NCBI GenBank assembly: GCA_043228905.1
Contig: JBHGNT010000012.1
Location: 18,476,001-18,540,000 of the forward strand
Origin: Azolla caroliniana
Lineage: Eukaryota; Plantae; Polypodiophyta
Reading direction: 5' to 3'
DNA: 64,000 nt
A program made the position numbers and the translations under genes. The notes under the pieces were generated by a model. The model saw only the letters and a program-made list of their open reading frames with translations, ran no database searches and was not told the origin of the DNA. Of this stretch, positions 1-63,930 are shown one piece after another. The first letter of the stretch is position 1. The number at the start of each line of letters is the position of its first letter.

Positions 1-2090
1 AGAATTATCTAGATGGTTAGATTACTAATTTGCAAAAATGTAAACAATAGTGCAAACTTTTTGTACTACTTTAGGTGCATCAATTAATTGGAACAAATCA
101 GTGGGTTTTTGGGTGACATCGAATTCCACTCCACAATGATGTCCTCATCTAGATTTCCGATGGATTCTCAAGGGAAACTCAGTTAGATATTTGGGATGCC
201 AAGTAGCCTTCAAAATTTCTAGTGGGTAGAGTGATAGTAGTCAATCAAGTTCTTTTGTCTAGTCTTTGGTATATTATGTCACATTGGAGTTTTTTCAGAT
301 CATGTATGGGACAATTACAAAGATTGATCCGGAATGATTTGTGGTTTGGTAATGATGGAAATCATGCTAGGGCAAAGGTCTCATTACAACAATCCAAAGC
401 TTTGGTTGCGAAATTGGTGATTGTTACCAGGATCAGAACCTTGGAAACAATTCTTATTATACAAATTGCAAAAGTTTGTCCCCAAATTGGTGGAGATTGG
501 AGGCCCAATTTTTTATGGATTTTTATGGAACACAACAAGTTGGTTATTTGCTTGGTCTATTCTTAATTCATGGAAAGACGTTTCTCTTGATTTAGTTAAG
601 AGATTGCCAAAACAAAAACTGAATTCTATGGATGACCCTTGATTTGGAATTCGTATTTTGCTGACAATAGGGGACATATGTTGGGAAGGCATACTCGATG
701 TGCATGGGCAGAATTAGATTGCAGACCAACACAATCTATAGGTGCATGGACATCATTCCTGTCTACACCTATAGAACGATAATGCTTAATAATATAAGGG
801 GTAGAAAGACAATATATTATGCGATATAAACCACCCTGTCTAATATTTAGATGCAATTTGGATCTTCTACACATATTGGGTTTATTTACTACATTGGATT
901 TTTTCATTGGAGTAAAACCCTATATTGGGGAAGAAGTTTGTATGACCTTTGATGTACATGATGATGGTAGGTTAACTTTCACACATAAGGAAACTAATTT
1001 GTTTAGTTTTTTGTTTGCATAAAGAAGTGAGGGTGATTGCAAATGATGGATAAAATTAGGTCTTAGATCTGGATCAACAAAAGGTGAATTACTTTTGAAG
1101 GATATGGATTATGGAAAGGAGACCAATATCTAAATTAACTTGGATCTTGGAGAATTGTATTGAATGGTGTGGATTCAAGATAAGAGAAAACATGTGCCTT
1201 TTTGAAACATTATTTGAAGATTGGTAGGAAAATATTAGGTGCTAGATCATGGAAAGAACAAACCACAAATGCTTTCTAGAGACGAAGTGGACTTTCTCCA
1301 TAACATTTCAAACAAATTTGGCAATGGTTGTGGGTTATAACAATGAGTAGGAAAAATGATTGTTTTTGTTGGTTGTTGGTTCATAGAGCTATACGAATTA
1401 ATGGTTGACGAAAGGGAAATACAAGATGTGCTCTTTTTGTGTGGATCTAGTAGAGACTATTAAGCATTGTTTGTGGAGTTGTGGTTTTGTGATGGAAATA
1501 TGGAAAAGAATGATAACAATGTTAATATCACTATATCCTTGAGAAGTGTATACATGGGAAGCGGTATTATGGGCGGTGGTAAAAGATAAACCAATGGTAT
1601 ACGAACAAGAAGTGGTTGCATATGCTATTGCTATGAGACATGGTTTGATGCAAAAAACATTAATACCTTTGAATCCATAAATAGAGATTGATAAACCTGA
1701 AATATGGCAATTGGTAAGTAGTATCACAATTTGGTATATTTGGGAGGCTCTATGGTTGAAGGTATTTCAAAATGTGATTGAAAGACCTACCCAAATAATT
1801 TTTGGGATTTGGACAGAGATTGTGCATAATCTCAGAGGTTCTTTGAATAATATAAAAGGTAATATGCAACAGGCTGAGCTCGGTTGGAGTTTCATGCCAC
1901 CCGGGACATAAGCATATTTTATAGATGGATTTCTAATAAGGTAGAGTAGTTCTACTCTACACTAGAATATTTATTTAAGCCAATGGTTAGAATTTAGAAA
2001 ATGGGCTTTACTAAAAGGTACATCTTGTATGTATAGCCTTAGGGTGTTTCTTCATACTAATGTAGTATCTTTTTTTTGAAAAAAAGGAAG
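1..2090 (+). mobile_element. Decayed non-LTR retrotransposon (L1-like LINE) ORF2 remnant: RT C-terminus and zinc finger
   Basis: Broken + frames give INWNKS (~85), KGNSVRYLGCQV (~170-205), GRVIVVNQVLLSSLWY (225-272), a zf-RVT-like CSFC..ETIKHCLWSC (~1428-1483) and IWYIW (~1730). Many stops and frameshifts; ends approximate. Confidence 0.75.
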
Positions 2091-2262
2091 TAGATAATTT
2101 TTGACATAGTGCCAACTTTTGCCATATGTAAATTCGAGTAATAGGTGATGGGTAGTCTGTTGGAGCTGACAAGAAAGAGTGAATCCTTAGGTTCCTTGAG
2201 GTCACAAATGTGTTAGCTTGAGGAGATCTTTACTGTCAAGACAAAGAGAGAGAGAGAGAGAG

Positions 2263-2545
2263 CCCAGATGGATGTAACTCAGTTGGTAAGGTTGCCCAAT
2301 GGAGACCATGTGGTCATGGGTTCAACCCCTACATTCTACAGTGGCATCTAGATATATAAGAAGAGAGAGAGAGAGAGTGTGTGTGTGTGTTTGTGTGTTA
2401 AGATATAGAGACTCCCAAGACAATATGAAGTATATAATAGAAAGAAATGAGAAATTGGGTTTCGAACCCAAGATGCAATGCTTGTAGTGTTAAGAACTAC
2501 ACTAGGGTATGCTAATTACGAAAAGAAGAAGAAGAAAAAAGACTC
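2263..2545. other. Insert with two tRNA-like modules, flanked by a 27-bp direct repeat of the element C LTR end
   Basis: TCAAGACAAAG(AG)8 at 2236-2262 and 2546-2572. A-box-like TAACTCAGTTGG (2274) and B-box-like GGTTCAACCC (2319) on +; GGTTCGAAACC on - at ~2458-2468. Confidence 0.5.
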
Positions 2546-2594
2546 TCAAGACAAAGAGAGAGAGAGAGAGAGTTAAAAGGAAAGTATTGTATTG

Positions 2595-7412: not shown

Positions 7413-7772
7413 TATTGCACTATAAAATGGATTACAAAGAGTAGGCAATAGGGAGCTATAGAATGGCGTTGAACCAATTTGGTTTTGGGATGATTAAGAG
7501 ATCCCTAGTTATAAGTCCCTATAGAGTATTCTAGAAGGTTCTAGAATATAGAGGAATCTAGAATCTTATAGAGTATTCTAGAAGGTTCTAGTATATTGAA
7601 CAATCTAGAATATTCTAGGACATTCTAGAATGTAGAGTAATCTAGAATATTCTTATGATATTAAATTATATATTCTAAAAACTATATATATAAGCATATC
7701 ATTACAATGGATTTGACATGTGTATAACAAGGTTGTGGGTTCAAATCCTTTCCAGACATCATGTGAGTGTCA

Positions 7773-15133: not shown

Positions 15134-15750
15134 TGTCGTGAAGAAAACCGTCCACGAGCGGAATCGGTGCGCCGGAGCATAGGAACCGGCTCTTCATGCA
15201 CGTACGCCTTACGTTGTACATAGAAGATCCTAGGTAGGAAGATTCGGTAGGTAAGAAGTTAATAGGAAACGGCTCCCTTCATGCCTATAAAAGGAGGGAG
15301 ACGAGGAGGAGGAAGATATAGCGAAGTAAGAGAGGACGAAGTGTTGTCGGATTGTGGGCCGAAGGCTTCTCTCTCTTCCAAACTCCATAGCTCCTTTCTG
15401 TGCAGGTTTCGGGAGGCTCGCGCTGCTCTGAGGAATGCCCGAGTGCTTTCGGCAGCACCTCCAACCTACTCCTTTCTTTCTGTGCGTTTACGAAGAGGCA
15501 TCGGCATCTGTTCGCCGGCCTGTTCGGTTGTAACCGACTTCGTCCTCTTGTTGTTTTGTCTTTGTTAATACATACATACATTCGTGTCTCTATGTGTCGC
15601 TGTCCCACTCGCGTCTTTGGGTCGAAGGGCCGTGTCCCTGTGGATCTACGCTCGCACGTAGCGGGTCTCTTCTCCTTTCTCTCTTGCTCTTCGGTATAGG
15701 ACCCCCGAGGTCCCGCCTCGTTCCACGCATCCGCGAGGAATACCTCGACA
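15134..15750 (+). repeat. 5' LTR of element D
   Basis: TGTCG...CGACA; TATAAAA at ~15286. Confidence 0.95.
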
Positions 15751-15793: not shown

Positions 15794-18700
15794 ATGAAGG
15801 GGTCGGATCTGGCAGAGGCCATGGCTTCGGCCGTGGATCGGATATTGAGTGCACGCGAGGGCACCGGCGCCCTCGATAGAGCCATTGAGGCGGTCGTCGG
15901 TACGATCGGCCGGTTCAGCGGAAAGGATGCCACGAAGTATTTGGCGTCCTACGGGGCAGAAATGCTGATGCGGGACATTCCGGAAGAGAGGCGTCTTGCC
16001 GGGTTTCCTCCAGTGGCGATGCCGAGCATCCATGCGGAGGTGCTCGAGGTGCGGGCGGAGAGCCGTACCTGGGAGGAGTTCGAAGGCCGACTCCTAGAAA
16101 AATACGGTGTCGTGACGTGGCTCGCCTAGAAGCGTAGCGTTGCGCACACAAAGGATAACGTGAAAGTGAGGAAGGAATCACTGGGATTATGGACGGAAGA
16201 GACGAAAGAGTAGAGATGGAGTGTTTAGAGATCAATAAGATATGACAAAATAGGATGTTTAAGGAATATAAGATAAGACAAGATAAGATATAAAATAATA
16301 TATGAGAAAGTGTATGAAATTTATAATCATTTTCTTGAAAGAGTTACAAAATGATTGTACACGTCGTTGATCCTCCGAACTTTGTCTTGCAAGGTAATCG
16401 CTCTTCTCTTTCTTGATCGTAGACCACTACAATCTTCACTTCAATATTTTGATGAAGATAAGGCTCGAACCGCCTCCCTCTTGTTGAGAGTTGACCACCA
16501 CGACCGCCAAGCTAGAGCTCCACCTTTTTCTTGACTTCTTCCTTTCTTTCTCTATTTTATGATATCTCTTATGTAATATATATTTGATTGATATCTCATA
16601 CCTATCCCCTTTGATCTTCTCTTTCACCATTTAAATAGGTGCCCCCATGCATATGATGCATTGGAGGATACAAGTCATGCATGTAGTGCATGAAATGCAT
16701 GTGATGCATGATCGCCATTTGGCGTTCATGCATTACATGTGATGCATGATAAACATCTCGCTCATTTGAGCTTTTATGTATGAAACAATATATGCAATAA
16801 CAATAAACATGAAAATATAATCTTAAAGAGAAAGGGCCTAGCCTAATGGTAGGTGTGTTGACTTTGGTGTATGAGGTTGTTGGTTCGAGTCTCAAAATAC
16901 TACAACATACAACTTTATTTTTATATCATGAAGCAAATCCTTTATGTAATATAAACTATATATAAAGTATGCTTTATTGTATGTAAATTACTAGTATAGA
17001 GTAAATGGTAAGATTTGAGAGTCATAGGGTGGGCTTATTGGTTCAAGTCCTCTCTTGTTCGTGTAATATAATATATTTATCTATATATATATATTATTTT
17101 TCTTTACATATATATAATATTATCATATGTGTTGTTATAAAACATTATCAAATGTTATTTTAGTTACATATTTATCTTATTGTAGACTTTTAATGTGAAG
17201 CTTTCGTACTTCACGACAACGGGTTGGACGACGCGCTCCGGCTTTCGAAACGGGACTTCATGGAATGGGTGGAGTCCCCCGGCAAGGGAAGAAATGCGTC
17301 GGCACTCCTCCGGGAGTTCGAAGAACGCTTTGCGCGCCTTTCGGCGCTTGACCGAACCGTTCTGGATACGAGCCGGGTCCTATTGTTCGTCAAGTCGGTG
17401 GACGAGCGGGACCGGGATCAAGTCGGCTCTTTGCTGGAAACCGAAGACGGGCTAACGACCGACTGGGCTGCGGTTAAGAGAGTCTGTGGCCGTTTCAACA
17501 AACGGCTAGAATGGGCTGACAACGGGGCGGCTGGTGCGGGCTCTGTCACAGCAAGGAGGCTTGAACCGGCACCACAAGGGCGAAGGGAAGAAACCCGAGA
17601 ATGGCTAGAAACCGGTCCGGCTTCGACCGGCATGGTTAGTGGCTCGTCCGGAGGAGCAGCGCTGGAGGAGTTGACGTGGGCGATAAAGGATCTCCAGATC
17701 GCCCAGACTCGAAGGGAAGGCGGCGAACCGGCTCGTGACCGACGGCCGGTAGCAGGGAACAGGTGCATGTGGTGCGACGAGGTCGGCCACATCCGGAAGG
17801 ACTGCGGCGATTTCGCTGAGGCGTTGAGGAACCGGGTGGTGTACCTGTGGGAAGGCCGGGTGCACGCCGGCGATACCAGAAGGGCCCTAAACCGAAACGA
17901 CGGGCGAGGAGGTATGAAAAGAATGATGGAAGAGGCAGCGGCCCGACACGTGGAGGCCATCCACTACTCGGCGTCGGCCGGCATTCGGGTCGGGGGCAGC
18001 GAGGCCCGAAAGGAGGGCAAAGATGGATTCTGGTCGGCAATGCTGGGAGGTCTTGCCGGCACACGAGTGAGGAAAGATGAAACGGACCACGCTGAAAGAC
18101 GGGTCTGGGAAATAACTGGGTGGAGCGATCCGGTCGAGGAGAAGACGGGCTTCGTAGAAGCCGCCTGCCGGAACTACGAGGCTCTGGTAGAAGACAAACG
18201 AGTGGGGAAAGCCAGAGCGGCCGGGCCCTCACAACGGTACGAGACCCGATTCGGGCAACGACGGAACGATGCCGGTGGGTCCAGCTCGCAGGATAACCCC
18301 AGGAAGGGCGGATACGGACTGGGGACGGAAATAGAAAGGACCACGGACCTACGAAAGGTCCTAGAAGAGCGGATCCTCGACAGCAAAGTGTAGCTGTCAT
18401 TGCGGGAGGTGCTAGGGATCGCTAAGAAGGAGTTCCACGATTCCATTGTTGACTTGGTGAAGCGGAAGAGGCTGTCGACGGAGATGGAACCGGAAAGGCC
18501 GGTGGAGGTGCGGACGACGCACATCGACGATTTGGCGCTGGAAGATGAGTGGGCGGAGAGCCACTATTCGAGGCCACACTGAGCCCGAGCGACCACGGAG
18601 ACCCTGGTAAAGATCGGAGATGTTCAGGAACCGGTGGTGGCATTGGTGGACCACGGTTCGGAAATAAACCTGATGTCCATGGACTTCTATAAGAAGGGAA

Positions 18701-21544: not shown

Positions 21545-22248
21545 TGTCGTAGTGTATTCCACACACTACGTGAAAACCATAAAATAATATATCCGATTTT
21601 AGATACATATAAATAGATAAATAATATATCAAAAGAATTTATCACGTGCGTAGGGCAAGATTCGAACCATGCACCTCCACATAGATAAACCCCAACTTTA
21701 CCATTGTAATAACTTATCTTTAGTGTTATAAATATAGATTTAATACGTATAAGACCTTTATTTACACATACCTTTATTAAAAGGTAAAAATCATGTATTC
21801 TTTAGAGTGTGAATATTTTATTTACACGTGACATTAAAAGTGACTCATGCACATCTAGCGTGCATGAGCCCTATATTTAGGAAATGACAAAGCATCACAT
21901 GCACATTTAGTGTGCATGGACATTTTAGGTGAAAAAGCATGAAGCCATGCTTAGCCTCTTCCATCTTTATATAAGGAGGAGAGAAATATGTATAAGGTTG
22001 TTGATTAATATACAAGATTGGATCAATCTAATATATTCGTGGGATTCACGAATTTTGCCATCTAATTGCTCTAATAATCTAAATATTGTTTTAATTACAC
22101 TAAACTCGTGGGATTCACGAGATTGCTATCTTACTTCTCTTTCCACTATTCATAACTAGCCTTAAGTTGTATTCCTCTTCCTCCTAGTCAAAAACCTTGG
22201 CGGTTCCCACACGACTCACGCAACGATCCGGAGCCGAAGGGCACGACA
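21545..22248 (+). repeat. 5' LTR of element F
   Basis: Direct repeat of 46940-47643. Confidence 0.96.
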
Positions 22249-25394: not shown

Positions 25395-25911
25395 TGTCAG
25401 GAATAGCACTAAAACAGAGATGGAATTAGTACTAAGAACAACAGTACTATTAGTACTAAGAGGACGGGACTGCGTGTCAGGAATAGCACTAAAACAGAGA
25501 TGGAATTAGTACTAAGAACAACAGTACTATTAGTACTAAGAGGACGGGACTGCGTAAGATTCCCGAGAGAGGAAGTGAGAAGAGGAGAGAGAGAGAGATA
25601 GCGAGAATGAGAGAGAGAGAGATGATGACAGCAGCTATATATTATGTGAAAAGATAAGTACAAGCGGCTAAGAGGCTTAAGACTGGCGTTGAACCAATTT
25701 GGTTCAAAACAATGCCGTGTGCCTCCTTTTATAGTGTTTTTAGGAATAATCCTGAAGCTTCTAGAATGTTCCAGAGAGATCTGGAATATACATCAATTTT
25801 CTATGATAAAGTATAAATGAAAATAATATCCTACAAAATACAATTCATAATCTAATGGTAAGAGCTCGACCCATGTAGCATAAAGTCATGGGTTCGAGTC
25901 TTGCCATGACA
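25395..25911 (-). repeat. 3' LTR of element A (80-bp tandem duplication at 25395-25554)
   Basis: Direct repeat of 30705-31221. Confidence 0.96.
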
Positions 25912-25922
25912 CTATCTCCCCC

Positions 25923-28900
25923 TTAAAGACGACGAGTGGAACGAGTCGGCGCTAATTGCGGACCGGGTTTGTCCGGATACTTTCGGTGGAAATTAGCAAG
26001 AAGATCTTGTGCATTGGCAACATTCTCGACGGGTTCCCAAGTACGTTCGCTCGGACTATAACCGAGCCAATCGACCAAGTAATAAAGTTTGTTGCGAACA
26101 AGTTTGGAATCGTCATACTCTGGGCCGGCGTCCAACTCCAACGGGGGCGGCGGTGGTGTCACACGATCGGGAATGGTGTTTGCTTTATAAGGTTCAAGAA
26201 GAGAACAATGGAAAACCGGATGTATCTGAAGCTACGGAGGGAGATCCAGACGGAAGGTGACATCATTAATCTTCCCCGTAATACGGAAAGGACCGAGTCG
26301 TCGATAATCCAACTTGTCGCACGGTCGAGTAGTCTTGATGTGACGACGTAAGAGCCATACTCGATCTCCGATGGCAAAAGAGGAGGGAATCCGATGACGA
26401 TCCGCATAAGTCTTCTGTGTGTGTTGAGCATGACGAAGGTGAGTAGAGAGATCCATCTGGATCTTGCGTAGCCTCTCCAAATGGTCCTCGGCACGAGGGT
26501 TGGTAGGTAGCTCCGGAGTGTCGATCACCGACCAACGAGGATGGAAACCGGTATAAGCGAGAAATGGGGAGACCCGAGTCGAGGAGTGAATAGCATTATT
26601 ATACGCAAACTCCGCAAAGTGGAGAATCTCGGCCCAATCGTCCTGTTGATAACTCAGGAAACACCGGAGATATTGCTCCAACGTTTGGTTTGTTCGTTCC
26701 GCCTGTCCGTCAGTTTGAGGATGGTAGCCGGAGGAGAGGTTGCAGGAGACCTTGAGCATCCTGAAGAGATGCTGCCAAAATTTGGAGACAAATTGCGGGC
26801 CTCGGTCACTGATAATACTGTCTGGTAGGCCATGATGCCGAAATACCTCACGCATAACAAGAGCGGCGGTTTCCTCGCTAGTGATGGCTTTAGTACATGG
26901 CACAAAATGTGCCATCTTCGTATATCGATCGACGACGGTTAGGATAGCATTGAACCCCTTCGAGACTGGCAGATCTGTAATAAAATCAAGACAAATAGAC
27001 TGCCATGGCTTACTTGGAATTGGTAAAGGTTCCAACAAGCCATATGGATGGTGTCGTGGCATCTTTGCTCGGCAGCAAGCATCACAGGTCCGAACGTAGT
27101 CGTCGACAAAACGGCGCATGTGGGGCCACCAAAAAGATCGCTGCACTAACTCCAACGTCTTGGTACTACCGAAATGTCCCGCCGTATGGGTGTCGTGACA
27201 ATGTTGGACGATTTGAAGGCGATAGGAGCAATCGGGGACATATACGTGCTTTTTAAAGAATAACAAACCATCATGATATTCGAATTGTCGGTAGTCAATA
27301 CCTGGTTGTTGAGACTGAGAACAGGATGCCCGAGAAGTATCAATGTGCGCCAGGATGTCTTGAGCAAAACTATCCGTCTTCAAGGTTGCACGTATGTCAT
27401 CGGTAATCCGTGAATCCATCGGGGTGTGAAAAATCCGCGTCGTGTGCAATCGTGTTGGTCCCAAGATTACTTGCTTTTGATTATCAAATGTTGCGTCACC
27501 AGGACGAGGTGCAAGATATGAACGCCGTGATAGTGCATCTGCTTTTCCTTGCTGCTTCCCCGGTCGATATGTGATTTCGAAGTTGAAACGCGTGAGGAAT
27601 TGCGCCCACCGAGCTTGCCGTCGATTTAGTACGCGAGCGTTCTGAAAATAAGCAAGATTTTTATGATCGCTAAAGACAATGACCTGATGTGGAGAGCCCT
27701 CTAAGAAATGCCGCCATTGTACAAATGAATCCACGATAGCTAATAACTCCTTGTCATGTATTTCGTAGTTGATTTCTGCGACATTGAATTTGCGCGAATG
27801 GAAAGCCACCGGATGCAACTCTTCTTTATCGCCTCGTTGAGAAAGGATGCTACCGAGGGCGAAATCTGATGCGTCGGCCTCCATGATGAATGGTTTGCTT
27901 GTATCCACATGAGCTAGAATCGGTGCTGATGTAAAGGCTTTCTTAAGATGCCGAAAAGCCATATCTGCTTCGATGGACCAAAGAAATGCTTGGCCCTTCT
28001 TCGTAAGTTGTGTGAGAGGTAAAATAATCTTCGAGTAATCCTGTATAAACTTACAGTAGAAGTTAGCAAAGCCTAGAAAACATTGTACATCTCGTACCGA
28101 CCGTGGAATTTGCCACTCTAGTACAGTTTGGATTTTAGCTGGATCCATGGCGATGCCCTTTGAGGAGATGACGTAGCCTAGAAATTCCACTTGCTTGCAG
28201 TCAAAGCTACATTTCTCTAGCTTGGCATAAAGACCATTCTCGCGGAGTCGCTTTAGTACTAATAGTACATGAGAATCGTGCTCTTCCTGGGTCTTCGAAT
28301 AAATCAACAGATCATCCAGATAAATGATCAAACAGATATCCAAGAGGTCTCTGAATATATCATTTGCCATGTGTTGGAAGACTGCGGGTGCATTGGTTAG
28401 GCCAAACGACATAACAGTATACTCGAAATGCCCATACCGCGTGCGAAAAGCGGTCTTCCACTCATCTCCCGGTCGGATCCGCACGAGATTATACGCTCCT
28501 CGTAGGTCGATTTTAGTAAAAAACTTGGCACCATTAACTCGCTCTAAAAGACTTGATATAAGAGGAAGTGCATACCTATTCCGGATGGTGACTTTATTCA
28601 ATCCGCGGTAATCAACGACAAGACGAAGTGAGCCATCTTTCTTCTTGACAAAGAAGATGGGTGCACCGGCCGGAGATTTCGAATGACGGATGAACCCGCT
28701 TGCCAAGTTCTCCTCTATGTAGGCTCGAAGGACTTCTAACTCGGTGGGTGACAAGTTGTAAATTGGTCCCCATGGTGGCTCGGTTCCTGGTTGTAAATCG
28801 ATGGGACAGTCATAGGGACGGTGATGAGGAAGGGTACCGGCTTTTACCTTGTCAAATACATCGGCATAAGGATGATATTTTGCCGGAAGTTGTATTGAGG

Positions 28901-29490
28901 AGTCCTTCTTAATAGTGCTAGAAGGATGTACTGATATGGCAAATAGGAACATTGCCTCCTTGGGTCCTTCTTCGCGTAGTTGATGGAGTGAAATGGTTGA
29001 AACTCGGTGAGTTGATTCTTGGGGTGGTCGATATCGGACTTCTCTTGTTCTCCAATCTATGGCTGGATTATGTAATTCAAGCCAAGGTAATCCTAGGACA
29101 ATGGGATGCTCTGGACTACTAATTATATTAAATGATATTATACACACAAAACTACCTAGGACAACTTGAATGGGTTCTGATTCTTCTACAATATTCCCGG
29201 AAGCAATGGGACGACCATCAATGACCACTACAGATGCGGGACAAGGAAGTTTTCTCAAGGATATCTGAGAAGCTTGGGCAAAATTTCGATCCATGAAACA
29301 GGAATTAGCTCCGGAATCTAAAAGTGCTAGGACGGGTACTGGGGGAGTACTTTTAGTACTAACAATGACTTGGGCTAGGAACACATTGCTAACTTGCTTG
29401 GAAGGAATGGAACCACTAATGGGCTGTACAGATCTAGGGCTGCTGTCCAACCAAATGGCTCCTATTTTGGCTGGACTCAATCGTTTAACT
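25923..29490 (-). pseudogene. Element A pol; PR-RT-RH-IN open (26232-29480), premature TAG at 26232-26234, damaged chromodomain
   Basis: LLDSGAN, YLDD, CLDFITDLP. DLPP-stop where B has ELPPQ; EYDDSK where B has EYEVAAILDSK. Confidence 0.93.
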
Positions 29491-30634
29491 CTTCATCTAA
29501 TTGACTAAGGATTTCAAATTTATTTGAGATACTTGGGCTATTAGTACTATGAATACTATCTGACACTCTATTAGTACTATTAATACTATCAGACACTCCG
29601 AAGGGAAGAATTGACTCGGGTTTAGTACAGGCGACGATTTGATTTACCTGTCTTCTTGGCCTATGGGGACAATTGATGGCGATATGTCCTGGTCCACCGC
29701 AATAAAGACATAATCGATTGGCACGTCGTCGTTGCTTTTCTTCTTCCGATAACGGGCCGCGTCGACGCATGGTATCGATCTCCATCGGTGTCGAAGTATT
29801 TGCTTGAGGTATGTCTCGTGCAAACGGTTTAGCCGCGACTACGACATAAGTGGGCTCTGGCCTAGAGCGTGGTATCTGTAATTGACGTTCTGAACGCCGT
29901 TCAAAAAGGCGGTTGTCACATCGAACTGCTCGACTGATTGCCTCCGTAAGAGACTTTGGTTCTTCGGGGAAAGTTAGAAGTAGATCTTTGACATCGTTTC
30001 GCAAGCCATAGCGAAACTGCTCCATTAGTGCTTGATCATCCCAGGGTATATCTGAAGCAAGTAGGCGGAAATCCGCCGCGTAGGCAGAGGCTGGACGATC
30101 GCCTTGACGCAATCGCCGGATCTTGTTGATCGTCGTCCTGATGCTGTCGGTGTCCCCAAAGCAGGCTTTAAACTCACCAATAAAATCTTCAAAGTTATTA
30201 AGTAAGGGTGATTGTTTTTCTAGAAGCGGAGCAAACCATGCCAAGGCTGAGCCACTAAGTAGCGTGCCTATTAGGCCGACTCGAGATGCATCAGTGGGAT
30301 ATCGGGAAGGATGCATCTGGATGACTAAGCGTACCTGATTAAGGAATCCCCGGAATTGCGAACGCGTTCCATCAAATTTCACAGGAAGTCCAATCTTGGG
30401 CTCTTTATGAAATCCTTGGGGACTGGATCCTTGTTGTTGCAACGCTGCTTCGAGTTGTTGTACCCGTAACGCTAACTCCCCATGTTGTTGTTGCGTTTGT
30501 TGTTTTTCTAGAGCGATTTGTTGCAAATCCCCTATCAGCCGTTGGTTTTCTTGTTCCAGGGCAACAAATTTTTCTTTTAGGCACTGTAGCTCGGAGAAAA
30601 CGGATTGGTATTCTTGGGCGCTAACAGTAGCCAT
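29477..30634 (-). CDS. gag: Element A Gag (385 aa; coiled coil, capsid, CCHC knuckle)
   Basis: Intact ORF; EPKIGLPVKFDGTRS, LCLYCGGPGHIAINCP; resembles Sushi/PEG10-type Gag. Confidence 0.95.
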   Translation of the reverse strand: MATVSAQEYQSVFSELQCLKEKFVALEQENQRLIGDLQQIALEKQQTQQQHGELALRVQQLEAALQQQGSSPQGFHKEPKIGLPVKFDGTRSQFRGFLNQVRLVIQMHPSRYPTDASRVGLIGTLLSGSALAWFAPLLEKQSPLLNNFEDFIGEFKACFGDTDSIRTTINKIRRLRQGDRPASAYAADFRLLASDIPWDDQALMEQFRYGLRNDVKDLLLTFPEEPKSLTEAISRAVRCDNRLFERRSERQLQIPRSRPEPTYVVVAAKPFARDIPQANTSTPMEIDTMRRRGPLSEEEKQRRRANRLCLYCGGPGHIAINCPHRPRRQVNQIVACTKPESILPFGVSDSINSTNRVSDSIHSTNSPSISNKFEILSQLDEELND

Positions 30635-30704
30635 AGTATAGGGAAAAGGGTAGGAGGATGAGGGAGAGGGACAAGTAGGCTAGAGGAACAAAATTGGTTC
30701 AAAC

Positions 30705-31221
30705 TGTCAGGAATAGCACTAAAACAGAGATGGAATTAGTACTAAGAACAACAGTACTATTAGTACTAAGAGGACGGGACTGCGTGTCAGGAATAGCACT
30801 AAAACAGAGATGGAATTAGTACTAAGAACAACAGTACTATTAGTACTAAGAGGACGGGACTGCGTAAGATTCCCGAGAGAGGAAGTGAGAAGAGGAGAGA
30901 GAGAGAGATAGCGAGAATGAGAGAGAGAGAGATGATGACAGCAGCTATATATTATGTGAAAAGATAAGTACAAGCGGCTAAGAGGCTTAAGACTGGCGTT
31001 GAACCAATTTGGTTCAAAACAATGCCTTGTGCCTCCTTTTATAGTGTTTTTAGGAATAATCCTGAAGCTTCTAGAATGTTCCAGAGAGATCTGGAATATA
31101 CATCAATTTTCTATGATAAAGTATAAATGAAAATAATATCCTACAAAATACAATTCATAATCTAATGGTAACAGCTCGACCCATGTAGCATAAAGTCATG
31201 GGTTCGAGTCTTGCCATGACA
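30705..31221 (-). repeat. 5' LTR of element A
   Basis: Adjacent to the self-complementary PBS at 30691-30704. Confidence 0.96.
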
Positions 31222-33131: not shown

Positions 33132-33998
33132 TGTCGTGCCTTTCGGCTCCGGATCGTTGCGTGAGTCGGGTGGGAACCACAGAGGTCTTGGACTAGGAGA
33201 AAGAAGTTCGTGAGATAGAGATTAATTATGAGTAAATAGCAAAGAGAAGATAAGAAACTCGTGAATCACACGAGTATACTATATTAATTGGTACTTAGGG
33301 TGTTAAGAGAGAAGTAGATGTATAAATCGTGAATCCCACGAATAAATTTTGTATTGATTAATACTTAATCCAAATAATCAACAACCCTTTACATATTTCT
33401 CTCCTCCTTATATAAGGGAGGAAGAGCTAAGCATGGCTTCATGCTTTTTTTTTACAAAAAGTGTTCATGTCCACTAAATGTGCATGTGATGCTTTTTTTA
33501 TTTCCTAAGTATAGGGCTCATGCACGCTAGATGTGCATGAGTTATTTTTAGTGTCTCGTGTTTTTCTTTTTTTTTTCTTTTTCATATATTAAAAAAATAC
33601 ACGATTTACCTTTTAATAAAGGTATGCATAAATAAAGGTCTTATACGTATTAAATCTATATTTAAAACACTTAAGATAATTTAATGTAATGGTAAGGTTG
33701 GGGTTTGTCAACGTGGAGGTGCAGAGTTTGAATCACGCCTTGCGCAGTAGTGAGTATTTCCTTTTTTTTTTTTACATTTATGTCTCTTTATCCGGCTCTT
33801 CCTTGCCGGTATGCCGTTTTCTTCCTTGCCGGTATGCCGTTTTCCTCCTTTCCGGTATGCCGTTTTTCCTCCTTGCCGGTATGCCGTTTTCCTCCTTGCC
33901 GGTATGCCGTTTTCTTCCGGTTCTCACCGAGCACTCCATTCTCTATCCGGAGGGACAAAAATATAATTTCCACATAGTGTGCAACCTACACTACGACA
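33132..33998 (-). repeat. 3' LTR of element G
   Basis: Direct repeat of 45472-46338. Confidence 0.96.
33798..33913. repeat. Five ~23-bp tandem repeats CYTCCTTGCCGGTATGCCGTTTT in U3 of G (copy at 46138-46253)
   Basis: Read directly from the sequence. Confidence 0.9.
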
Positions 33999-34788: not shown

Positions 34789-35078
34789 TGTCATAACTAG
34801 ACTCGAACCCATAACCTTTTGTTACACGGGTCGAGACTTTACCATTAGGTTATGAATTGTAATTTGAAGGATATTATTTTCATTTAGGTTTTATTAGGAA
34901 ATTGATGTATATTCCAGATTTCTCTGGAACATTCTAGAAACTTCAGGAATATTCCTGAAGACACTATAAAAGGAGGCGCAAGGCATTAGTTCGAACCAAA
35001 TCGGTTCAACGCCAGTCTTAAGCCTTCTAACCACTGTTGTATATCTTCCTTCATATAATACATATATCTTTCGCATCA

Positions 35079-35126
<48 letters not shown>

Positions 35127-35259
35127 ACTCATTCCTTCTCTCAAAGTTCGACACCTCTCATAGTACTAATCCTTCTCTGTCTTAGTACTATTCCCCGACA
35201 ATAGTACTAATCCTTCTTTTAGTACTAATTCCTTCTCTGCCTTAATAGAGTTCCTGACA
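34789..35259 (+). repeat. 5' LTR of element B
   Basis: TGTCA...TGACA; TATAAAA at 34965. Confidence 0.97.
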
Positions 35260-35273
35260 GTTTGAACCGATTT
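35260..35273 (+). promoter_or_regulatory. Putative self-priming PBS of element B
   Basis: TTGAACCGATTT is the exact complement of LTR 34998-35009; no TGG tRNA-type PBS is present. Confidence 0.8.
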
Positions 35274-35362
35274 TCTTCGGTGCCTGTCTGGTCTTTTCTC
35301 TCCCTCTTCCTTCTGTCTCCCTCCTTTCCTATTAGTCTCTTATTCCCCTTTTCCTTCATCCC

Positions 35363-36532
35363 ATGGCCACCGTTAGCGCTGAAGAGTATCAATCCGTTTT
35401 CTCGGAATTTCAATGCTTGAAAGAGAAGTTTCATGCTTTGGAACAAGAAAATCAACGCTTGTTGGGGGATCTTCAGCAAATTTCCTTAGAAAAGCAGCAA
35501 ACGCAACAACAGCATGGGGAACTTGCGTTACGCGTGCAACAACTCGAAGCAACCATCGTAGCAATGCAACAACAAGGGCACGGAGCACAAGGGATTCATA
35601 AAGAACCCAAGATTGGCCTTCCCACGAAGTTCGATGGAACGCGATCGCAGTTTAGAGGGTTTCTTAACCAGGTACGGTTAGTTATTCAAATGCATCCGTC
35701 CCGATATCCCACCGATGCATCACGAGTGGGTTTAGTAGGCACGTTGTTAAATGGCTCAGCATTAGCATGGTTCGCTCCGCTACTAGAAAAGGAATCTCCA
35801 GTACTAAATAATTTTGAAGAATTCATAAGTGAGTTTAAAGCATGTTTTGGAGATACTGACAGCATAAGGACTGCAATCAATAAAATCCGGCGATTACGCC
35901 AAGGTGACCGTCCAGCCTCCGCATATGCTGCAGATTTCCGCCTACTCGCCGCCGATATCCCCTGGGATGATCAAGCATTGATGGAGCAGTTCCGCTATGG
36001 TCTACGCAACGATGTCAAGGATTTACTCTTGACTTTCCCTGAAGAGCCAAAATCATTAACAGAAGCAATCAGTCGAGCGGTCAGATGTGACAACCGCCTC
36101 TTCGAGCGACGTTCGGAACGACAATTTCAGATGCCGAGGGCAAGATCCGAGCCTACCTATGCCTCAGTGGTAGCGAAACCTTTTCAAAGGGAGTCACATA
36201 ATGCGCCTCCAGTAAGTACTCCAACTCCAATGGAAATTGACACTACACGTCGTCGTGGGCCGCTATCGGAGGAGGAAAAGCAACGACGCCGAACAAACCG
36301 ATTATGCCTTTATTGCGGTGGACCAGGGCATATCGCGATAAACTGTCCCCATAGACCAAGAAGGCAGGTAAACCAAGTCGTTGTTAGTTCTGACTATACT
36401 AAACCCGAGTCTATTTCAGTAGGAATCTCTGATAGTCCTCATAGTCATAATAGTCCTAATAGTACTAATAGTCCGAATCTCGCAAACAAATTTGATATCC
36501 TTAGCCAATTAGAAGAAGAGTTAAACGACTAA
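35363..36532 (+). CDS. gag: Element B Gag (389 aa)
   Basis: Intact ORF with CLYCGGPGHIAINC knuckle. Confidence 0.96.
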   Translation: MATVSAEEYQSVFSEFQCLKEKFHALEQENQRLLGDLQQISLEKQQTQQQHGELALRVQQLEATIVAMQQQGHGAQGIHKEPKIGLPTKFDGTRSQFRGFLNQVRLVIQMHPSRYPTDASRVGLVGTLLNGSALAWFAPLLEKESPVLNNFEEFISEFKACFGDTDSIRTAINKIRRLRQGDRPASAYAADFRLLAADIPWDDQALMEQFRYGLRNDVKDLLLTFPEEPKSLTEAISRAVRCDNRLFERRSERQFQMPRARSEPTYASVVAKPFQRESHNAPPVSTPTPMEIDTTRRRGPLSEEEKQRRRTNRLCLYCGGPGHIAINCPHRPRRQVNQVVVSSDYTKPESISVGISDSPHSHNSPNSTNSPNLANKFDILSQLEEELND

Positions 36533-39500
36533 GTCCAGCCAAAATAGGAGCCGTTTGGTTGGACAGCCCTAGATCTGTGCAGCCCATTAGTGGTTCCATT
36601 CCCTCTAAGCAAGTTAGTGATGTGTTCGTAGCCCAAGTAGCAGTTAGTACTAAAAGTACCCCTCCAGTACATACCTTAGCCCTTCTAGATTCCGGAGCTA
36701 ATTCTTGCTTCATGGATAGGAATTTTGCCCGAGCTCATCAGATATCTCTCAAAAAGCTCCCATGTCCAGCCTCAGTAGTAGTCATTGATGGTCGTCCCAT
36801 TGCTTCTGGTAATATCATAGAAGAGTCGGAACCCGTTAATATTGTCCTAGATAACTTAACATGTGTAGTATCATTTAATATTATTAGTATTCCAGAACAT
36901 CCCATAGTTTTAGGATTACCATGGTTCGAGTTACATAACCCAGACATAGATTGGAGGACAAGGGAAATCCAGTTGCGACAAACCCAAGGATCTACCCAGA
37001 AGGTTGCAACCATTTCGCTACGTCAGTTGCGTGAGGAAGGGCGCAAGGAGGAAATGTTTCTCTTCGCAATATCAGTACAACCCTCCAGCACCACCAAAGA
37101 GGAGTCCACCGTTCAACTTCCCGAGAAGTATCATCAGTATGCTGATGTGTTCGATAAAGTACAAGCCAACACACTTCCTCATCATCGGCCGTACGATTGC
37201 GCCATCGACTTACAACCGGGAAAAGAGCCGCCATGGGGGCCGATCTACAATTTGTCACCAACCGAGCTAGAAGTCCTTCGAGCCTATATAGAGGAGAATT
37301 TGGAGAACGGTTTCATTCGGCATTCGAAATCTCCAGCCGGCGCACCCATTTTCTTCGTCAAGAAAAAAGATGGCTCGCTTCGACTCGTTGTAGATTACCG
37401 TGGCTTGAATAAGGTCACAGTAAGAAATAGGTATGCTCTTCCCCTTATCTCAAGTCTTTTAGAACGGATCAACGGTGCCAGGTTCTTCACGAAGATCGAC
37501 TTACGAGGAGCCTATAACCTCGTACGGATCCGACCAGGAGATGAATGGAAGACCGCGTTTCGCACCAGATATGGGCACTTCGAGTATACGGTCATGCCGT
37601 TCGGACTCACTAATGCGCCGGCAGTCTTCCAGCACATGGCGAATGATATATTTCGAGATCTCTTGGATGATTTTTTGATCATCTATTTGGATGATCTACT
37701 GGTTTATTCAAAGACCCAAGAAGAACATGATTCTCATGTACTATTAGTACTAAAACGACTTCGAGAACATGGTCTGTATGCAAAGTTAGAGAAATGTAGT
37801 TTCGGGTGCAACCAAGTGGAGTTTCTCGGCTATGTCATTTCCTCAGAAGGCATATCTATGGACCCAGCCAAGGTCAAAACGGTGATAGAATGGCACACTC
37901 CGCGTTCGGTGCGGGATGTGCAATGCTTCCTAGGCTTTGCAAATTTTTACCGGAAGTTCATACAAAATTACTCAAAAATTGTGCTGCCTCTCACACAGCT
38001 CACCAGGAAGGGACAATCATTCATCTGGTCTAAAGAGACGGACATGGCTTTCGAGAGTCTTAAGAAGGCGTTTACATCAGCTCCAATTTTAGGTCATGTG
38101 GATCCGGAAAAACCATTCATTATCGAAGCTGACGCATCGGATTTCGCATTGGGGAGCATTCTGTCACAACAAGGTAACGACGAGAAGCTACATCCTGTGG
38201 CTTTCCACTCCCGTAAGTTTGACGCCGCCGAAATCAACTACGAAATTCATGATAAAGAGCTATTAGCAATAGTTGATTCTTTTATGCAATGGAGGCATTT
38301 CCTGGAGGGATCTCCTCATCAGGTCACTGTATTCAGTGACCACAAGAACCTTGCCTACTTTCAAGATGCTCGTGTACTGAATCGACGTCAAGCTCGGTGG
38401 GCCCACTTCCTCACACGCTTCGACTTCAAAATTACATATCGTCCGGGGAAGCACCAAGGGAAGGCAGATGCATTATCACGGCGTTCGTATCTAACACCAC
38501 GTCCCGGTGAGCCAGCTTTCGATAACCAGAAGCAAGTAATCTTGGGTCCAGCACGACTGCAAGCAGCACAGGTCTTTGACATGCCCGTGGATTCCGACAT
38601 TACCAATATTATACGTGAGGACTTGAAGACTGACGCTTTCGCCCAAGCTATACTAGCACAAATTGACCCCTCTCGAGCGTCATGTTCACAATCACAATCA
38701 CCAGGTACGGATTATCGGCAATTCAAATACTGTGATGGATTACTCTTCTTTAAAGAACTTTTGTATGTTCCTAATGGTTCTTGCCGCCTTCAAGTAGTAC
38801 AAAACTGCCATGACACATATACAGCAGGACATTTTGGTAGTACTAAAACATTAGATTTAGTACAACGATCATTCTGGTGGCCCCGTATGCGACAATTTGT
38901 CGAAGATTTTGTTCGGACTTGCGATACATGCTGCAGAGCGAAAATGCCAAGACATCATCCATATGGTTTATTAGAACCATTACCAATTCCAAGCAAGCCA
39001 TGGCAATCCATTGCTCTTGACTTCATTACAGATCTTCCAGTCTCTAAGGGATTCAGTGCGATTCTCACAGTGGTGGATCGATATACGAAGATGGCTCATT
39101 TCTTACCATGTACTAAAGAAATATCTAGTGAAGACACCGCCGAAATTGTCATGCGGGAAGTATGTCGGCATCATGGACTCCCTGATAATATCATCAGCGA
39201 TCGTGGACCCCAGTTTGTGTCAAAATTCTGGAAGCACCTTTTTAAAATGCTGAAGGTCACTTGTAACCTCTCCTCCGGCTACCACCCACAAACCGACGGC
39301 CAAGCCGAACGAACAAATCAAACACTGGAGCAGTATCTGCGGTGCTTTCTCAACTATCATCAGAATGACTGGGCAGATATTCTTCAGTTCGCCGAATTTG
39401 CCTATAATAACGCTATCCACGCATCGACTAAAGTCACGCCATTCTACGCTTATACAGGATATCATCCCCGGTGGTGTGTCCTTGAAACCCCAGAAGTGTC

Positions 39501-40116: not shown

Positions 40117-40398
40117 CTAGACTCGAACCCATAACCTTTTGTTACACGGGTCGAGACTTTACCATTAGGTTATGAATTGTAATTTGAAGGATATTATTTT
40201 CATTTAGGTTTTATTAGGAAATTGATGTATATTCCAGATTTCTCTGGAACATTCTAGAAACTTCAGGAATATTCCTGAAGACACTATAAAAGGAGGCGCA
40301 AGGCATTAGTTCGAACCAAATCGGTTCAACGCCAGTCTTAAGCCTTCTAACCACTGTTGTATATCTTCCTTCATATAATACATATATCTTTCGCATCA

Positions 40399-40456
<58 letters not shown>

Positions 40457-40589
40457 ACTCATTCCTTCTCTCAAAGTTCGACACCTCTCATAGTACTAAT
40501 CCTTCTCTGTCTTAGTACTATTCCCCGACAATAGTACTAATCCTTCTTTTAGTACTAATTCCTTCTCTGCCTTAATAGAGTTCCTGACA
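40109..40589 (+). repeat. 3' LTR of element B
   Basis: Direct repeat of 34789-35259. Confidence 0.97.
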
Positions 40590-45471: not shown

Positions 45472-46338
45472 TGTCGTGCCTTTCGGCTCCGGATCGTTGC
45501 GTGAGTCGGGTGGGAACCACAGAGGTCTTGGACTAGGAGAAAGAAGTTCGTGAGATAGAGATTAATTATGAGTAAATAGCAAAGAGAAGATAAGAAACTC
45601 GTGAATCACACGAGTATACTATATTAATTGGTACTTAGGGTGTTAAGAGAGAAGTAGATGTATAAATCGTGAATCCCACGAATAAATTTTGTATTGATTA
45701 ATACTTAATCCAAATAATCAACAACCCTTTACATATTTCTCTCCTCCTTATATAAGGGAGGAAGAGCTAAGCATGGCTTCATGCTTTTTTTTTACAAAAA
45801 GTGTTCATGTCCACTAAATGTGCATGTGATGCTTTTTTTATTTCCTAAGTATAGGGCTCATGCACGCTAGATGTGCATGAGTTATTTTTAGTGTCTCGTG
45901 TTTTTCTTTTTTTTTTCTTTTTCATATATTAAAAAAATACACGATTTACCTTTTAATAAAGGTATGCATAAATAAAGGTCTTATACGTATTAAATCTATA
46001 TTTAAAACACTTAAGATAATTTAATGTAATGGTAAGGTTGGGGTTTGTCAACGTGGAGGTGCAGAGTTTGAATCACGCCTTGCGCAGTAGTGAGTATTTC
46101 CTTTTTTTTTTTTACATTTATGTCTCTTTATCCGGCTCTTCCTTGCCGGTATGCCGTTTTCTTCCTTGCCGGTATGCCGTTTTCCTCCTTTCCGGTATGC
46201 CGTTTTTCCTCCTTGCCGGTATGCCGTTTTCCTCCTTGCCGGTATGCCGTTTTCTTCCGGTTCTCACCGAGCACTCCATTCTCTATCCGGAGGGACAAAA
46301 ATATAATTTCCACATAGTGTGCAACCTACACTACGACA
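45472..46338 (-). repeat. 5' LTR of element G
   Basis: Adjacent to the tRNA-Trp PBS. Confidence 0.96.
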
Positions 46339-63403: not shown

Positions 63404-63930
63404 TCAAAAACTCATAAAACGTATATTTGAGAATATGAAGAAAACATGACATAGGCAGTAGTAGCATAACAACTTACCACTAGGGAACAAAGAAAGAAAA
63501 AAAGAAGAAGAAAAAGAAAAAGAAAAAGAAACGATCAAAAACTCATAAAACGTATATTTGAGAATATGAAGAAAACATAACATAGGCAGTAGTAGCATAA
63601 CAACTTACCACTAAGGTGACCTAATTTCTAATAACAAAGAAAGAAAGAAAAAGAAGAAAAAGGAACATGACACTAACAAGAGGATGATGAAGTTGGGAAT
63701 TGAACCCAAGACACAAATAATAGTAGCACAACAACTTACCACTAGTTTATGCTTAGTTCTAATAATAAAAATAAAAGAAAAGAAAAAATTATTATAACAC
63801 TAACATAAAATTTTGCTATAAAAATGGTACTAATGAGAGAGGGAGAGAAAGATGAGAAAATTGGGAATCAAACCCAAGACATAGACACCAATAGCATGAC
63901 TCCTTACCACTAGGGTGAGCTAAATTGTAA
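63404..63930 (-). repeat. AT-rich repeat region: ~131-bp-period duplication and tRNA-like modules
   Basis: 63404-63482 recurs at 63535-63613. CTTACCACTA occurs four times. GAACCCAAGAC and AAACCCAAGAC (B-box-like on -) at ~63702 and ~63870. Confidence 0.6.

What the first reader, a model, noticed from the sequence alone, without database searches (positions are those of the whole stretch)
16839..17050. tRNA-like Pol III A-box/B-box modules built into U3 of unrelated LTR families, always antisense
Seen in solo LTR E: two units, TAGCCTAATGGTA..GGTTCGAGTC (16839-16891) and TAGAGTAAATGGTAAG..GGTTCAAGTCC (16997-17050). The same AATGG(TAA)..GGTTCRA arrangement occurs in F (~21655-21712, -), G (33682-33736, degenerate), A (25848-25900), B (34800-34852, -) and C (7700-7748, shortened). 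In the intact units the GG-to-GGTTC spacing is 33-34 nt. All lie in U3 and point away from the element's Pol II transcript (orientation of E is inferred). The boxes and spacing are kept while the intervening sequence and cloverleaf are not. Established: A/B boxes bind TFIIIC; tRNA genes and B-boxes can act as chromatin barriers; Cassandra TRIMs carry 5S Pol III promoters in their LTRs. Inference: chromoviral and non-chromoviral lineages converged on a portable TFIIIC insulator or outward Pol III promoter that protects the LTR promoter in heterochromatin. This is the best candidate for an undescribed system here.
Basis: partly seen in the sequence, partly recalled or inferred. Interest (0 to 1): 0.8.

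Follow-up and report, generated by a model that had tools for sequence, protein, structure and literature searches.

The report
Backward tRNA promoters in retrotransposon ends
Two lineages of jumping genes, likely from a moss, carry a worn tRNA-gene promoter back to front at the outer end of their terminal repeats; its two signal boxes and their spacing persist while the DNA between them changes, so it likely works as a docking site for the RNA polymerase III factor TFIIIC, although no binding or function has been shown.

Summary
The A-box/B-box units are real: 10 near-perfect hits against 0.05 expected, mostly with tRNA-like 32-nt spacing. The six 'unrelated' families are two lineages: self-priming Tcn1-like chromoviruses (A, B, C) and Phygy-like elements (E, F, G). 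The units are not LTR-specific, since they also lie in flanking DNA. They are not always antisense (E holds a third, sense unit) and not universal (K and four copia LTRs lack them; G's B box is broken).
Selection is likely. The two closest chromovirus relatives, fetched by protein alone, carry the unit antisense at the U3 start with diverged spacers; none of 36 more distant loci does. Among F-family copies the B box is invariant (0 of 10 positions versus 13 of 32 spacer positions), but a like-for-like test over both boxes is not significant (p 0.12).
Best reading: a captured tRNA/SINE head kept as an outward-facing TFIIIC site. Insulator function is untested. A shared 26-nt U3 core makes exchange between lineages as plausible as convergence. 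Closest known are Helenus TRIMs and foamy-virus LTR Pol III cassettes. This scan noted tRNA relics in LTRs of other genomes, mostly judged passengers.

The parts
16108..17218 (-). Solo LTR E (Phygy-like; 4-bp target duplication ACGG), inserted in the gag region of element K
   Evidence: orientation
16839..16892 (+). Unit E1: A box (0 mismatches), 32-nt spacer, B box (0 mismatches); antisense in U3; first T4 86 nt after the predicted start
16997..17050 (+). Unit E2: A box (1 mismatch), 31-nt spacer, B box; antisense in U3, 168 nt from the LTR 5' end
16461..16514 (-). Third unit in E, in the element's SENSE orientation, on the R/U5 side; 1 mismatch, 32-nt spacer (exception to 'always antisense')
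16706..16731 (-). 26-nt U3 core of E shared (25/26) with the U3 of chromovirus locus L002
   Evidence: blastn E 5.5e-5; score 47 versus shuffle max 28
21658..21711 (-). Unit in the 5' LTR of F (Phygy-like, LTR 21545-22248), antisense, B box 113 nt from the LTR start; twin in the 3' LTR at 47053-47106
33682..33735 (+). Unit in the 3' LTR of G (LTRs identical over 867 nt); B box broken at two positions; twin at 46022-46075
25848..25901 (+). Unit in the 3' LTR of chromovirus A, antisense, ending about 10 nt from the LTR terminus; B box pairs with an inverted copy in the spacer (hairpin z -5.7); twin at 31158-31211
34799..34852 (-). Unit in the 5' LTR of chromovirus B, antisense, 10 nt from the LTR start; twin at 40119-40172
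7700..7748 (+). Shortened unit (27-nt spacer, intact B box) in the 3' LTR of chromovirus C; the 5' LTR copy is cut off inside the A box at 52298
2275..2329 (+). Unit outside any assigned LTR; keeps a partial acceptor-like stem; SINE-head-like, followed by a microsatellite
2458..2511 (-). Decayed unit facing the 2275 unit; intact B box and 5-bp T stem, A-box GG lost
63440..63917 (-). Four locally duplicated units in AT-rich non-LTR DNA: two with both boxes and a 5-bp T stem (63696-63749, 63864-63917), two with the A box only
   Evidence: (family D19)
15134..15750 (+). 5' LTR of Phygy-like element K (same primer site as F and G): no A/B unit, negative case

Best explanation
The units are likely tRNA-derived (SINE-head-type) internal RNA polymerase III promoters that two Ty3/gypsy lineages carry back to front at the outer end of U3, and they are likely kept by selection as binding sites for TFIIIC. 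SHOWN: box-spacer-box units with class-I tRNA geometry and no cloverleaf; their antisense position 10-330 nt inside the LTR 5' end in A, B, C, E, F and G; the same unit in two protein-selected chromovirus relatives with diverged spacers; similar units in non-LTR DNA. INFERRED: (1) an ancestral U3 captured a dispersed tRNA/SINE head. (2) LTR copying fixed it in both repeats, and it spread to the second lineage either by a second capture or by U3 exchange. (3) TFIIIC binds the B and A boxes and would load TFIIIB on the inner side, 110-260 nt upstream of the element's Pol II TATA box. That would keep the U3 enhancer region open or shield it from surrounding heterochromatin. (4) The outward orientation would keep any Pol III transcript (84-107 nt to the first T4 in E1, E2 and F) away from the Pol II promoter; such a transcript cannot be the genomic RNA. 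My odds by step: tRNA-derived about 0.95, under selection about 0.75, selected for TFIIIC binding about 0.5, specifically a barrier about 0.3.
For: (a) Non-random: 10 versus 0.05 expected. (b) 42 loci were fetched with a chromodomain-region alignment that is blind to the boxes; 38 have at least 195 nt after the match. The two closest (L001 75%, L002 66% aa identity) both carry an antisense unit with 32-nt spacing at the U3 start. None of the other 36 has an antisense unit; one, L036, has a sense hit. Chance per LTR-sized piece of the window is about 0.001-0.006. (c) The five unit-bearing chromoviruses fall on one side of a branch in a 16-row tree (77/83, not starred). (d) Across E1, F, A, L001 and L002 the invariant columns are T8, the D-loop run AATGGT, three variable-loop letters, GTTC, A58 and C61; spacer identity is 0.28-0.55. 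(e) F-family contigs from 4 runs (3 studies; complete variant table): 0 of 10 B-box positions vary, including its CpG, against 13 of 32 spacer positions (p 0.018). Consensus-breaking changes occur at 1 of 17 specified positions (p 0.018). A-box variation lies at both N positions and at the one position where F departs from consensus. A sister subfamily has a spacer segment only 10/21 identical but of the same length (loose ends in all 4 runs; counted by eye). (f) In the B family all 5 listed A-box variants fit the consensus; of 7 loose-end rows covering the A box, 5 fit fully and 2 have one mismatch (read by eye). (g) A/B boxes bind TFIIIC, and TFIIIC sites act as barriers in yeast (PMC12409998 passages).
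Against: No binding, transcript or chromatin data exist for these units. Like-for-like counts in the F family are not significant (any variant: 3 of 18 specified positions versus 13 of 32, p 0.12; fixed-letter positions 1 of 10, p 0.12); these tests are post hoc and positions are not independent. No variant is listed in the outer 33 nt on either side of that stretch (probably an edge effect), so boxes versus flanks could not be judged there. Seven spacer positions (21673-21679) are as invariant as the B box. In B the A box varies at 5 of 11 positions against 12 of 46 in the flank, 18 of 58 rows were hidden, and the B box lies too near the LTR end to be scored. G moved recently with a broken B box (identical LTRs). 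K, four copia LTRs and L013 (which has DNA likeness to C's 3' end) have no unit, so the unit is not required. In A and B the B box is also one arm of a hairpin (z -5.7, -2.6), which could explain its retention there. A-box position 3 (G) is often off consensus. TFIIIC accepts 32-93 bp spacing, so it does not explain why 32 is kept so tightly. The barrier evidence I read is from yeast and human, not plants.
Confidence: 0.5

Rival explanations
1. Passenger: tRNA/SINE heads are scattered through this genome's AT-rich DNA, U3 regions picked them up, and they ride along without function.
For: Units in non-LTR DNA. A sense-oriented unit in E. Absence in K and the copia LTRs. Broken B box in young G, and a spacer better kept than the B box between F and G. 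Shortened unit in C. Like-for-like test p 0.12.
Against: Same place, strand and spacing in chromoviruses whose spacers and flanks have diverged to 0.20-0.48 identity. G-type B-box changes stay under 3% of laid depth in 4 of 4 runs. Same-length, diverged spacer in an F sister subfamily.
Confidence: 0.24
2. RNA-level tRNA docking: in the genomic RNA an antisense unit is complementary to the D and T loops of a tRNA, so it could be the 3' part of a split primer-binding site, as in Ty3, or aid strand transfer.
For: It explains the antisense orientation and the U3 position directly. Ty3 U3 pairs with the T arm and D arm of its primer (PMC5371799 passages). The best-kept letters are loop letters.
Against: A, B, C, L001 and L002 self-prime through 12-bp R/PBS duplexes whose sequences co-vary, so they need no tRNA. 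In F the primer site implies a T stem that the unit does not match outside the universal loop (sequence). G-U wobble would tolerate G>A at GG and T>C at TTC, yet these stay fixed apart from a rare change at 21702. The stems and the anticodon arm are not kept.
Confidence: 0.12
3. The product matters: Pol III makes short antisense RNAs from U3 (or read-through into the polypurine tract and flanks) that tune silencing of the family, loosely like foamy-virus LTR Pol III cassettes.
For: Both boxes are kept, not only the B box. T4 terminators lie 11-46 nt after the B box in E1, E2, F, G and L002. A and B units fold as hairpins. Pol III transcription from retroviral LTRs is proven (PMC3993851 passages).
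Against: The transcribed sequence is not conserved. Seven of nine LTR units show no stable fold (z -1.2 to +1.3). A, C and L001 have no T4 inside the LTR after the B box.
Confidence: 0.1
4. Landing pad: TFIIIB loaded by the units attracts Ty3-like integrases, so the LTRs seed nested insertions.
For: Ty3 needs box A, box B and TFIIIB for targeting (PMC5911963 passages). The window is a nest of elements.
Against: None of the nested insertions mapped here lies just upstream of a unit. A, B, G, E and F sit in internal regions, and copia X sits 285 nt from C's A box.
Confidence: 0.04

Closest known systems
Helenus / TRIMp3 (Kojima 2024, PMC10886601; parts 1-4 of 6 of the text read)
   Same: [quoted passage not shown] The paper also notes that 'not a few' Repbase LTRs hold part of a tRNA.
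   Different: Helenus are non-coding TRIMs of 311-1263 bp whose boxes are proposed to drive the element's own RNA; the only plant case is in Selaginella. Here the carriers are 5.8-kb or larger gag-pol elements with a TATA-like box, and the unit faces outward, so it cannot make the genomic RNA.
Cassandra and Ajax TRIMs (as described in PMC10886601; original Cassandra paper not read)
   Same: [quoted passage not shown]
   Different: 5S-derived type-1 promoter, sense, non-autonomous; here tRNA-type boxes, antisense, autonomous.
Foamy-virus LTR Pol III miRNA cassettes (PMC3993851, passages)
   Same: A/B-box Pol III units inside the LTR of an autonomous retroelement that is itself made by Pol II.
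   Different: Those units make conserved stem-loop miRNA precursors with proven expression; here the transcribed sequence is not conserved, most units do not fold, and expression is unknown.
tRNA-gene and ETC (extra TFIIIC) barriers (PMC12409998, passages)
   Same: B-box DNA that can bind TFIIIC and stop heterochromatin spread.
   Different: Host loci of yeast and human; ETC sites have an extended B box and lack TFIIIB. The units here keep an A box at tRNA distance and ride in mobile LTRs; binding is untested.
Ty3 bipartite primer-binding site (PMC5371799, passages)
   Same: U3 sequence complementary to the T and D arms of a tRNA, i.e. antisense tRNA-like DNA in U3.
   Different: Ty3 pairs with one specific primer tRNA; the chromoviruses here self-prime and the units match only generic loop letters.
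Tcn1 and Phygy lineages (Neumann 2019, PMC6317226, passages)
   Same: Carriers match: chromodomain plus self-priming (Tcn1); non-chromoviral, short, NCGN target duplication (Phygy). Both are reported from mosses (Tcn1 also from club-mosses).
   Different: The passages read say nothing about U3 Pol III boxes; the element table and FASTA supplements could not be read.

Membership tests
Helenus / TRIMp3 | tRNA-like sequence with conserved boxes A and B in the LTRs | tested here: met
Helenus / TRIMp3 | Non-autonomous TRIM (about 0.3-1.3 kb, no coding) | tested here: not met
   A, B and G carry gag-pol frames of 981-1203 aa; A and B span 5.8 kb
Helenus / TRIMp3 | Pol III promoter placed to transcribe the element's own RNA | tested here: not met
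   Units point outward from the U3 start; only the third unit of E is sense
Type-2 Pol III promoter | A box and B box at workable spacing | tested here: met
   0-1 mismatches and 31-32 nt in E1, E2, F, A, B; 32 nt in L001, L002; G and C depart
Type-2 Pol III promoter | TFIIIC/TFIIIB/Pol III occupancy and transcription | not testable with these tools
   No ChIP data; no RNA holder listed
Type-2 Pol III promoter | Downstream oligo-T terminator | tested here: inconclusive
   T4 within 46 nt of the B box in E1, E2, F, G, L002 (AT-rich DNA, no shuffle control); none inside the LTR in A, C, L001
tRNA gene | Cloverleaf with acceptor, D, anticodon and T stems | tested here: not met
   ARAGORN 0 genes; no Rfam tRNA hit; acceptor pairs 1-3 of 7 in LTR units
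tRNA-derived SINE | Head with A/B boxes plus body, tail and target-site duplication as a dispersed family | tested here: inconclusive
TFIIIC chromatin barrier / ETC site | TFIIIC-dependent block to heterochromatin spread | not testable with these tools
   Needs ChIP and reporter assays
Tcn1 chromovirus (A, B, C) | Chromodomain integrase and self-priming instead of a tRNA primer | tested here: met
   Pfam Chromo in B, E 2e-14; 12-bp R/PBS duplexes in A, B, C, L001, L002; 5-bp target duplications in A and B
Tcn1 chromovirus (A, B, C) | RT/RH/INT phylogenetic placement with REXdb reference elements | not tested
   Reference sequences not readable; the tree holds no named reference
Phygy (E, F, G, K) | Non-chromoviral gypsy with NCGN 4-bp target duplication | tested here: met
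   Duplications ACGG (E), ACGT (F), CCGT/CCGC (G, 3 of 4 letters match), CCGT (K); no Chromo hit in G pol; E is a solo LTR, assigned by ends and duplication only
Phygy (E, F, G, K) | Phylogenetic placement with REXdb Phygy references | not tested
   No reference set available

The most novel reading that the evidence does not exclude
Autonomous moss Ty3/gypsy elements have domesticated a tRNA-gene promoter as a portable, outward-facing TFIIIC/TFIIIB module at the U3 edge. It shields or opens their Pol II promoter inside heterochromatic nests and has passed between chromoviral and non-chromoviral lineages as a U3 cassette: a mobile, self-carried chromatin barrier.
Probability: 0.25. Interest if true: 0.8.

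Novelty: new variant of a known kind. Interest (0 to 1): 0.55.

Why it matters
How LTR elements stay transcribable inside silenced nests is an open question. A Pol III-type module kept under selection in two gypsy lineages would give a concrete, testable cis-element, present in very many copies, and a route to testing TFIIIC barrier function in a plant; the barrier evidence I read comes from yeast and human. It would also extend tRNA-box LTRs from miniature non-coding elements (Helenus) to autonomous ones in an orientation that rules out the role proposed there. If the units are passengers, the finding reduces to a note on SINE-head capture in U3.

Tried and rejected
No whole genome is held for the window, so no genome-wide profile scan or copy count was possible.
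Sequencing runs: no RNA holder listed.
Viral-contig scans with chromovirus and Phygy-like integrase queries found no relative. No Phygy-like relative from another genome was obtained, so the deep-conservation test rests on the chromovirus lineage only.
The 28 genome-contig loci are distant (32-58% aa identity), likely stray eukaryotic pieces in MAGs, and were not put in the tree. For many of the 42 loci an LTR after the match was only crudely located. L010, L018, L020 and L023 had 0-8 nt downstream and were dropped from the count. The tree left out L014 (49 aa) and used only the first 93-aa match of C.
Rejected as incidental: the extra hits across the R region of A and B (25656-25711, 34987-35041 and twins), whose 'B box' is the self-priming palindrome, and a hit inside the protease-RT linker of L001, which is in frame and coding.
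The L002 row was mis-anchored and is discarded; it was redone.
An upstream AT-rich motif seen by eye in E1, A, B and L002 did not pass the local-alignment test between lineages. Upstream TATA/CAA elements were not scored; the review passage read says they are weaker in non-flowering plants.
A tRNA-like segment reported in HIV-1 U3/R is recalled only; search did not return that paper.
Literature: ten searches (listings only unless a paper is cited as read) showed no paper describing A/B boxes in moss gypsy U3. PMC7466625 has 0 occurrences of 'polymerase III' or 'tRNA' and PMC3601003 has 0 of 'polymerase III' or 'B box'. Subscription journals, Repbase notes and the unreadable supplements of PMC6317226 may hold such a description.
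Full report
1. Setting. The window is a nest of LTR retrotransposons. No whole genome is held. A (25395-31221, -), B (34789-40589, +) and C (3' LTR split by copia X) are one lineage. Their internal DNA is 65-77% alike and the A and B LTRs 83%. B has a chromodomain. Each has a 12-bp duplex between the start of R and the primer site, with co-varying letters, which indicates self-priming. F, G and K share one tRNA-type primer site and TGTCGT..CGACA ends. They and solo LTR E have 4-bp NCGN target duplications. Neumann 2019 (PMC6317226, passages) gives self-priming for Tcn1 and NCGN for Phygy, both from mosses, so the host is likely a moss. These assignments rest on those features, not on a tree with named references.

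2. The observation. With recalled textbook box patterns and 31-33 nt spacing, the window has 10 hits with at most one mismatch, against 0.05 in 60 block shuffles; 13 versus 0.48 at two mismatches; 21 versus 2.5 at three. The spacing is 32 nt in E1, F, G, A and B, which is the distance from G19 to position 52 in a class-I tRNA (recalled numbering). It is 31 in E2 and 27 in C. No tRNA gene is called, and the LTR units keep 1-3 of 7 acceptor pairs. E reads on the minus strand: its U3 shares 25 of 26 nt in sense with the oriented LTR of L002, so E1 and E2 are antisense.

3. Corrections. There are two lineages, not six unrelated families. One of the 10 best hits lies in E in the sense orientation (16461-16514). 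Another lies outside any assigned LTR (2275-2329). Further units lie in AT-rich flanking DNA at 63440-63917, four local copies of which two keep both boxes and a 5-bp T stem. The Phygy-like element K and copia LTRs X, H, D and J have none. G, whose LTRs are identical over 867 nt, has a B box broken at two positions, while its spacer is 83% identical to F's.

4. Test across families. An alignment of chromovirus integrase C-termini, blind to the boxes, fetched 14 metagenome and 28 genome-collection loci. Four had almost no DNA after the match and were dropped. Of the 38 left, the two closest (L001 75%, L002 66% aa identity) carry an antisense unit with 32-nt spacing at the start of U3. None of the other 36 does; one has a sense hit. 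In a 16-row tree the five unit-bearing chromoviruses fall on one side of a branch with modest support (77/83). Between A or B and L001 or L002, box identity is 0.67-0.89, spacer 0.38-0.48 and flanks 0.20-0.40. This is the strongest evidence that the boxes are kept on purpose. L013, a decayed locus with DNA likeness to C's 3' end, lacks the unit. No Phygy-like relatives from other genomes were obtained.

5. Test within families. Contigs of four DNA runs were laid on F's unit (complete table of 22 variant rows). No variant of 3% or more lies in 21659-21668, which includes the B-box CpG, against 13 of 32 spacer positions (p 0.018). Consensus-breaking changes occur at 1 of 17 specified positions (p 0.018; 0 of 17 versus 10 of 32 for variants seen in at least 3 runs, p 0.009). 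Counting any variant gives 3 of 18 versus 13 of 32 (p 0.12), and fixed-letter positions give 1 of 10 (p 0.12). The tests are post hoc, seven spacer positions next to the B box are also invariant, and the outer 33 nt on each side show no rows, probably an edge effect. Loose ends in all four runs show a sister subfamily whose spacer segment is 10/21 identical but of equal length (by eye). On B's U3 (40 of 58 rows shown) five A-box positions vary, all within the consensus, but the flank also varies (12 of 46) and the B box is too close to the LTR end to score. Together this is suggestive, not decisive.

6. Mechanism. Shown: geometry, position, orientation, distribution, and the conservation pattern above. 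Inferred: a dispersed tRNA/SINE head was captured in U3 and is kept as a TFIIIC site. A/B boxes bind TFIIIC, which loads TFIIIB upstream, and tRNA genes and ETC sites act as barriers in yeast (PMC5911963 and PMC12409998, passages). Because the unit faces outward, TFIIIB would land on the inner U3, 110-260 nt from the Pol II TATA-like box (distances). Any Pol III transcript would run away from the promoter: 84-107 nt to the first T4 in E1, E2 and F, and out of the LTR in A, B, C and L001. Keeping the A box suggests a full promoter rather than a B-box-only site. The tight 32-nt spacing is not explained by TFIIIC, which accepts 32-93 bp, and remains open. In A and B a hairpin involving the B box confounds the reading; F, E, C, L001 and L002 have no such fold.

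7. Rivals. Passenger capture is the main rival (0.24). A Ty3-type tRNA docking site in U3 explains the antisense orientation well (PMC5371799, passages), but the chromoviruses self-prime and the fixed letters do not follow wobble rules (0.12). A regulatory antisense RNA as in foamy viruses (PMC3993851, passages) lacks a conserved or folded product (0.10). A landing pad finds no support among the insertions mapped here (0.04). On origin, the E/L002 shared core (score 47 versus shuffle maximum 28; 65 pairs tested) makes U3 exchange between lineages as plausible as convergence.

8. Comparison and novelty. Helenus TRIMs already show tRNA-derived A/B boxes in LTRs without a working tRNA (PMC10886601, parts 1-4 of 6 read). 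This case fails two defining features of that group: it is autonomous, and the unit cannot transcribe the element. It works like a captured type-2 promoter but is not a Helenus. Ten searches showed no description in moss gypsy elements; unreadable supplements of PMC6317226 and closed literature may bear on this. Earlier AI notes of this scan report tRNA relics in LTR elements of other genomes, several judged passengers, and one U3 capture between moss lineages. I used them as leads only.

9. Verdict. Real and well above chance; probably selected in the chromovirus lineage and possibly in the Phygy-like one; function untested. New variant of a known kind. Interest 0.55; the mobile-barrier reading has probability about 0.25 and would merit 0.8.

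Noticed in passing
window 2235-2571: A 281-nt segment (2263-2543) between two copies of about 28 nt of the end of C's LTR holds two tail-to-tail tRNA-like heads around an (AG)n(TG)n microsatellite. It may be a SINE-like insertion into an LTR, the capture step proposed for Helenus.
   Followed up: partly
window 16706-16731 and L002 4229-4254: A Phygy-like solo LTR and a chromovirus LTR from another sample share a 25/26-nt U3 core, which hints at U3 module exchange between lineages or a shared host promoter motif.
   Followed up: partly
window 34994-35012 with 35260-35274; same sites in A, C, L001, L002: Self-priming R/PBS duplexes of 12 bp with co-varying sequences in five chromoviruses; the site itself contains a B-box-like word.
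   Followed up: yes
window 25855-25908 and 34803-34837: In A and B the spacer holds an inverted copy of the B-box region, giving a strong hairpin at the very start of U3 (z -5.7 and -2.6).
   Followed up: partly
window 33797-33918 and 46137-46258: G's U3 carries a 23-24-nt tandem array, absent from F, just outside the broken unit.
   Followed up: no
window 52298-52314: C's 5' LTR ends inside its A box and is joined to the last 135 nt of copia LTR J, apparently by a deletion.
   Followed up: partly
L001 4189-4645 and L002 4036-4455: Both loci read pol - single LTR - gag, i.e. tandem elements sharing an LTR or collapsed assemblies.
   Followed up: no
window 7510-7660 and 52110-52250; L001 4340-4450: U3 arrays of palindromic TTCTAGAA words shared by C and L001 and, in reduced form, A and B; they resemble heat-shock elements (recalled).
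   Followed up: no
window 1-2000: Decayed G/T-rich stretch that looks like an old non-LTR retrotransposon relic; not annotated.
   Followed up: no
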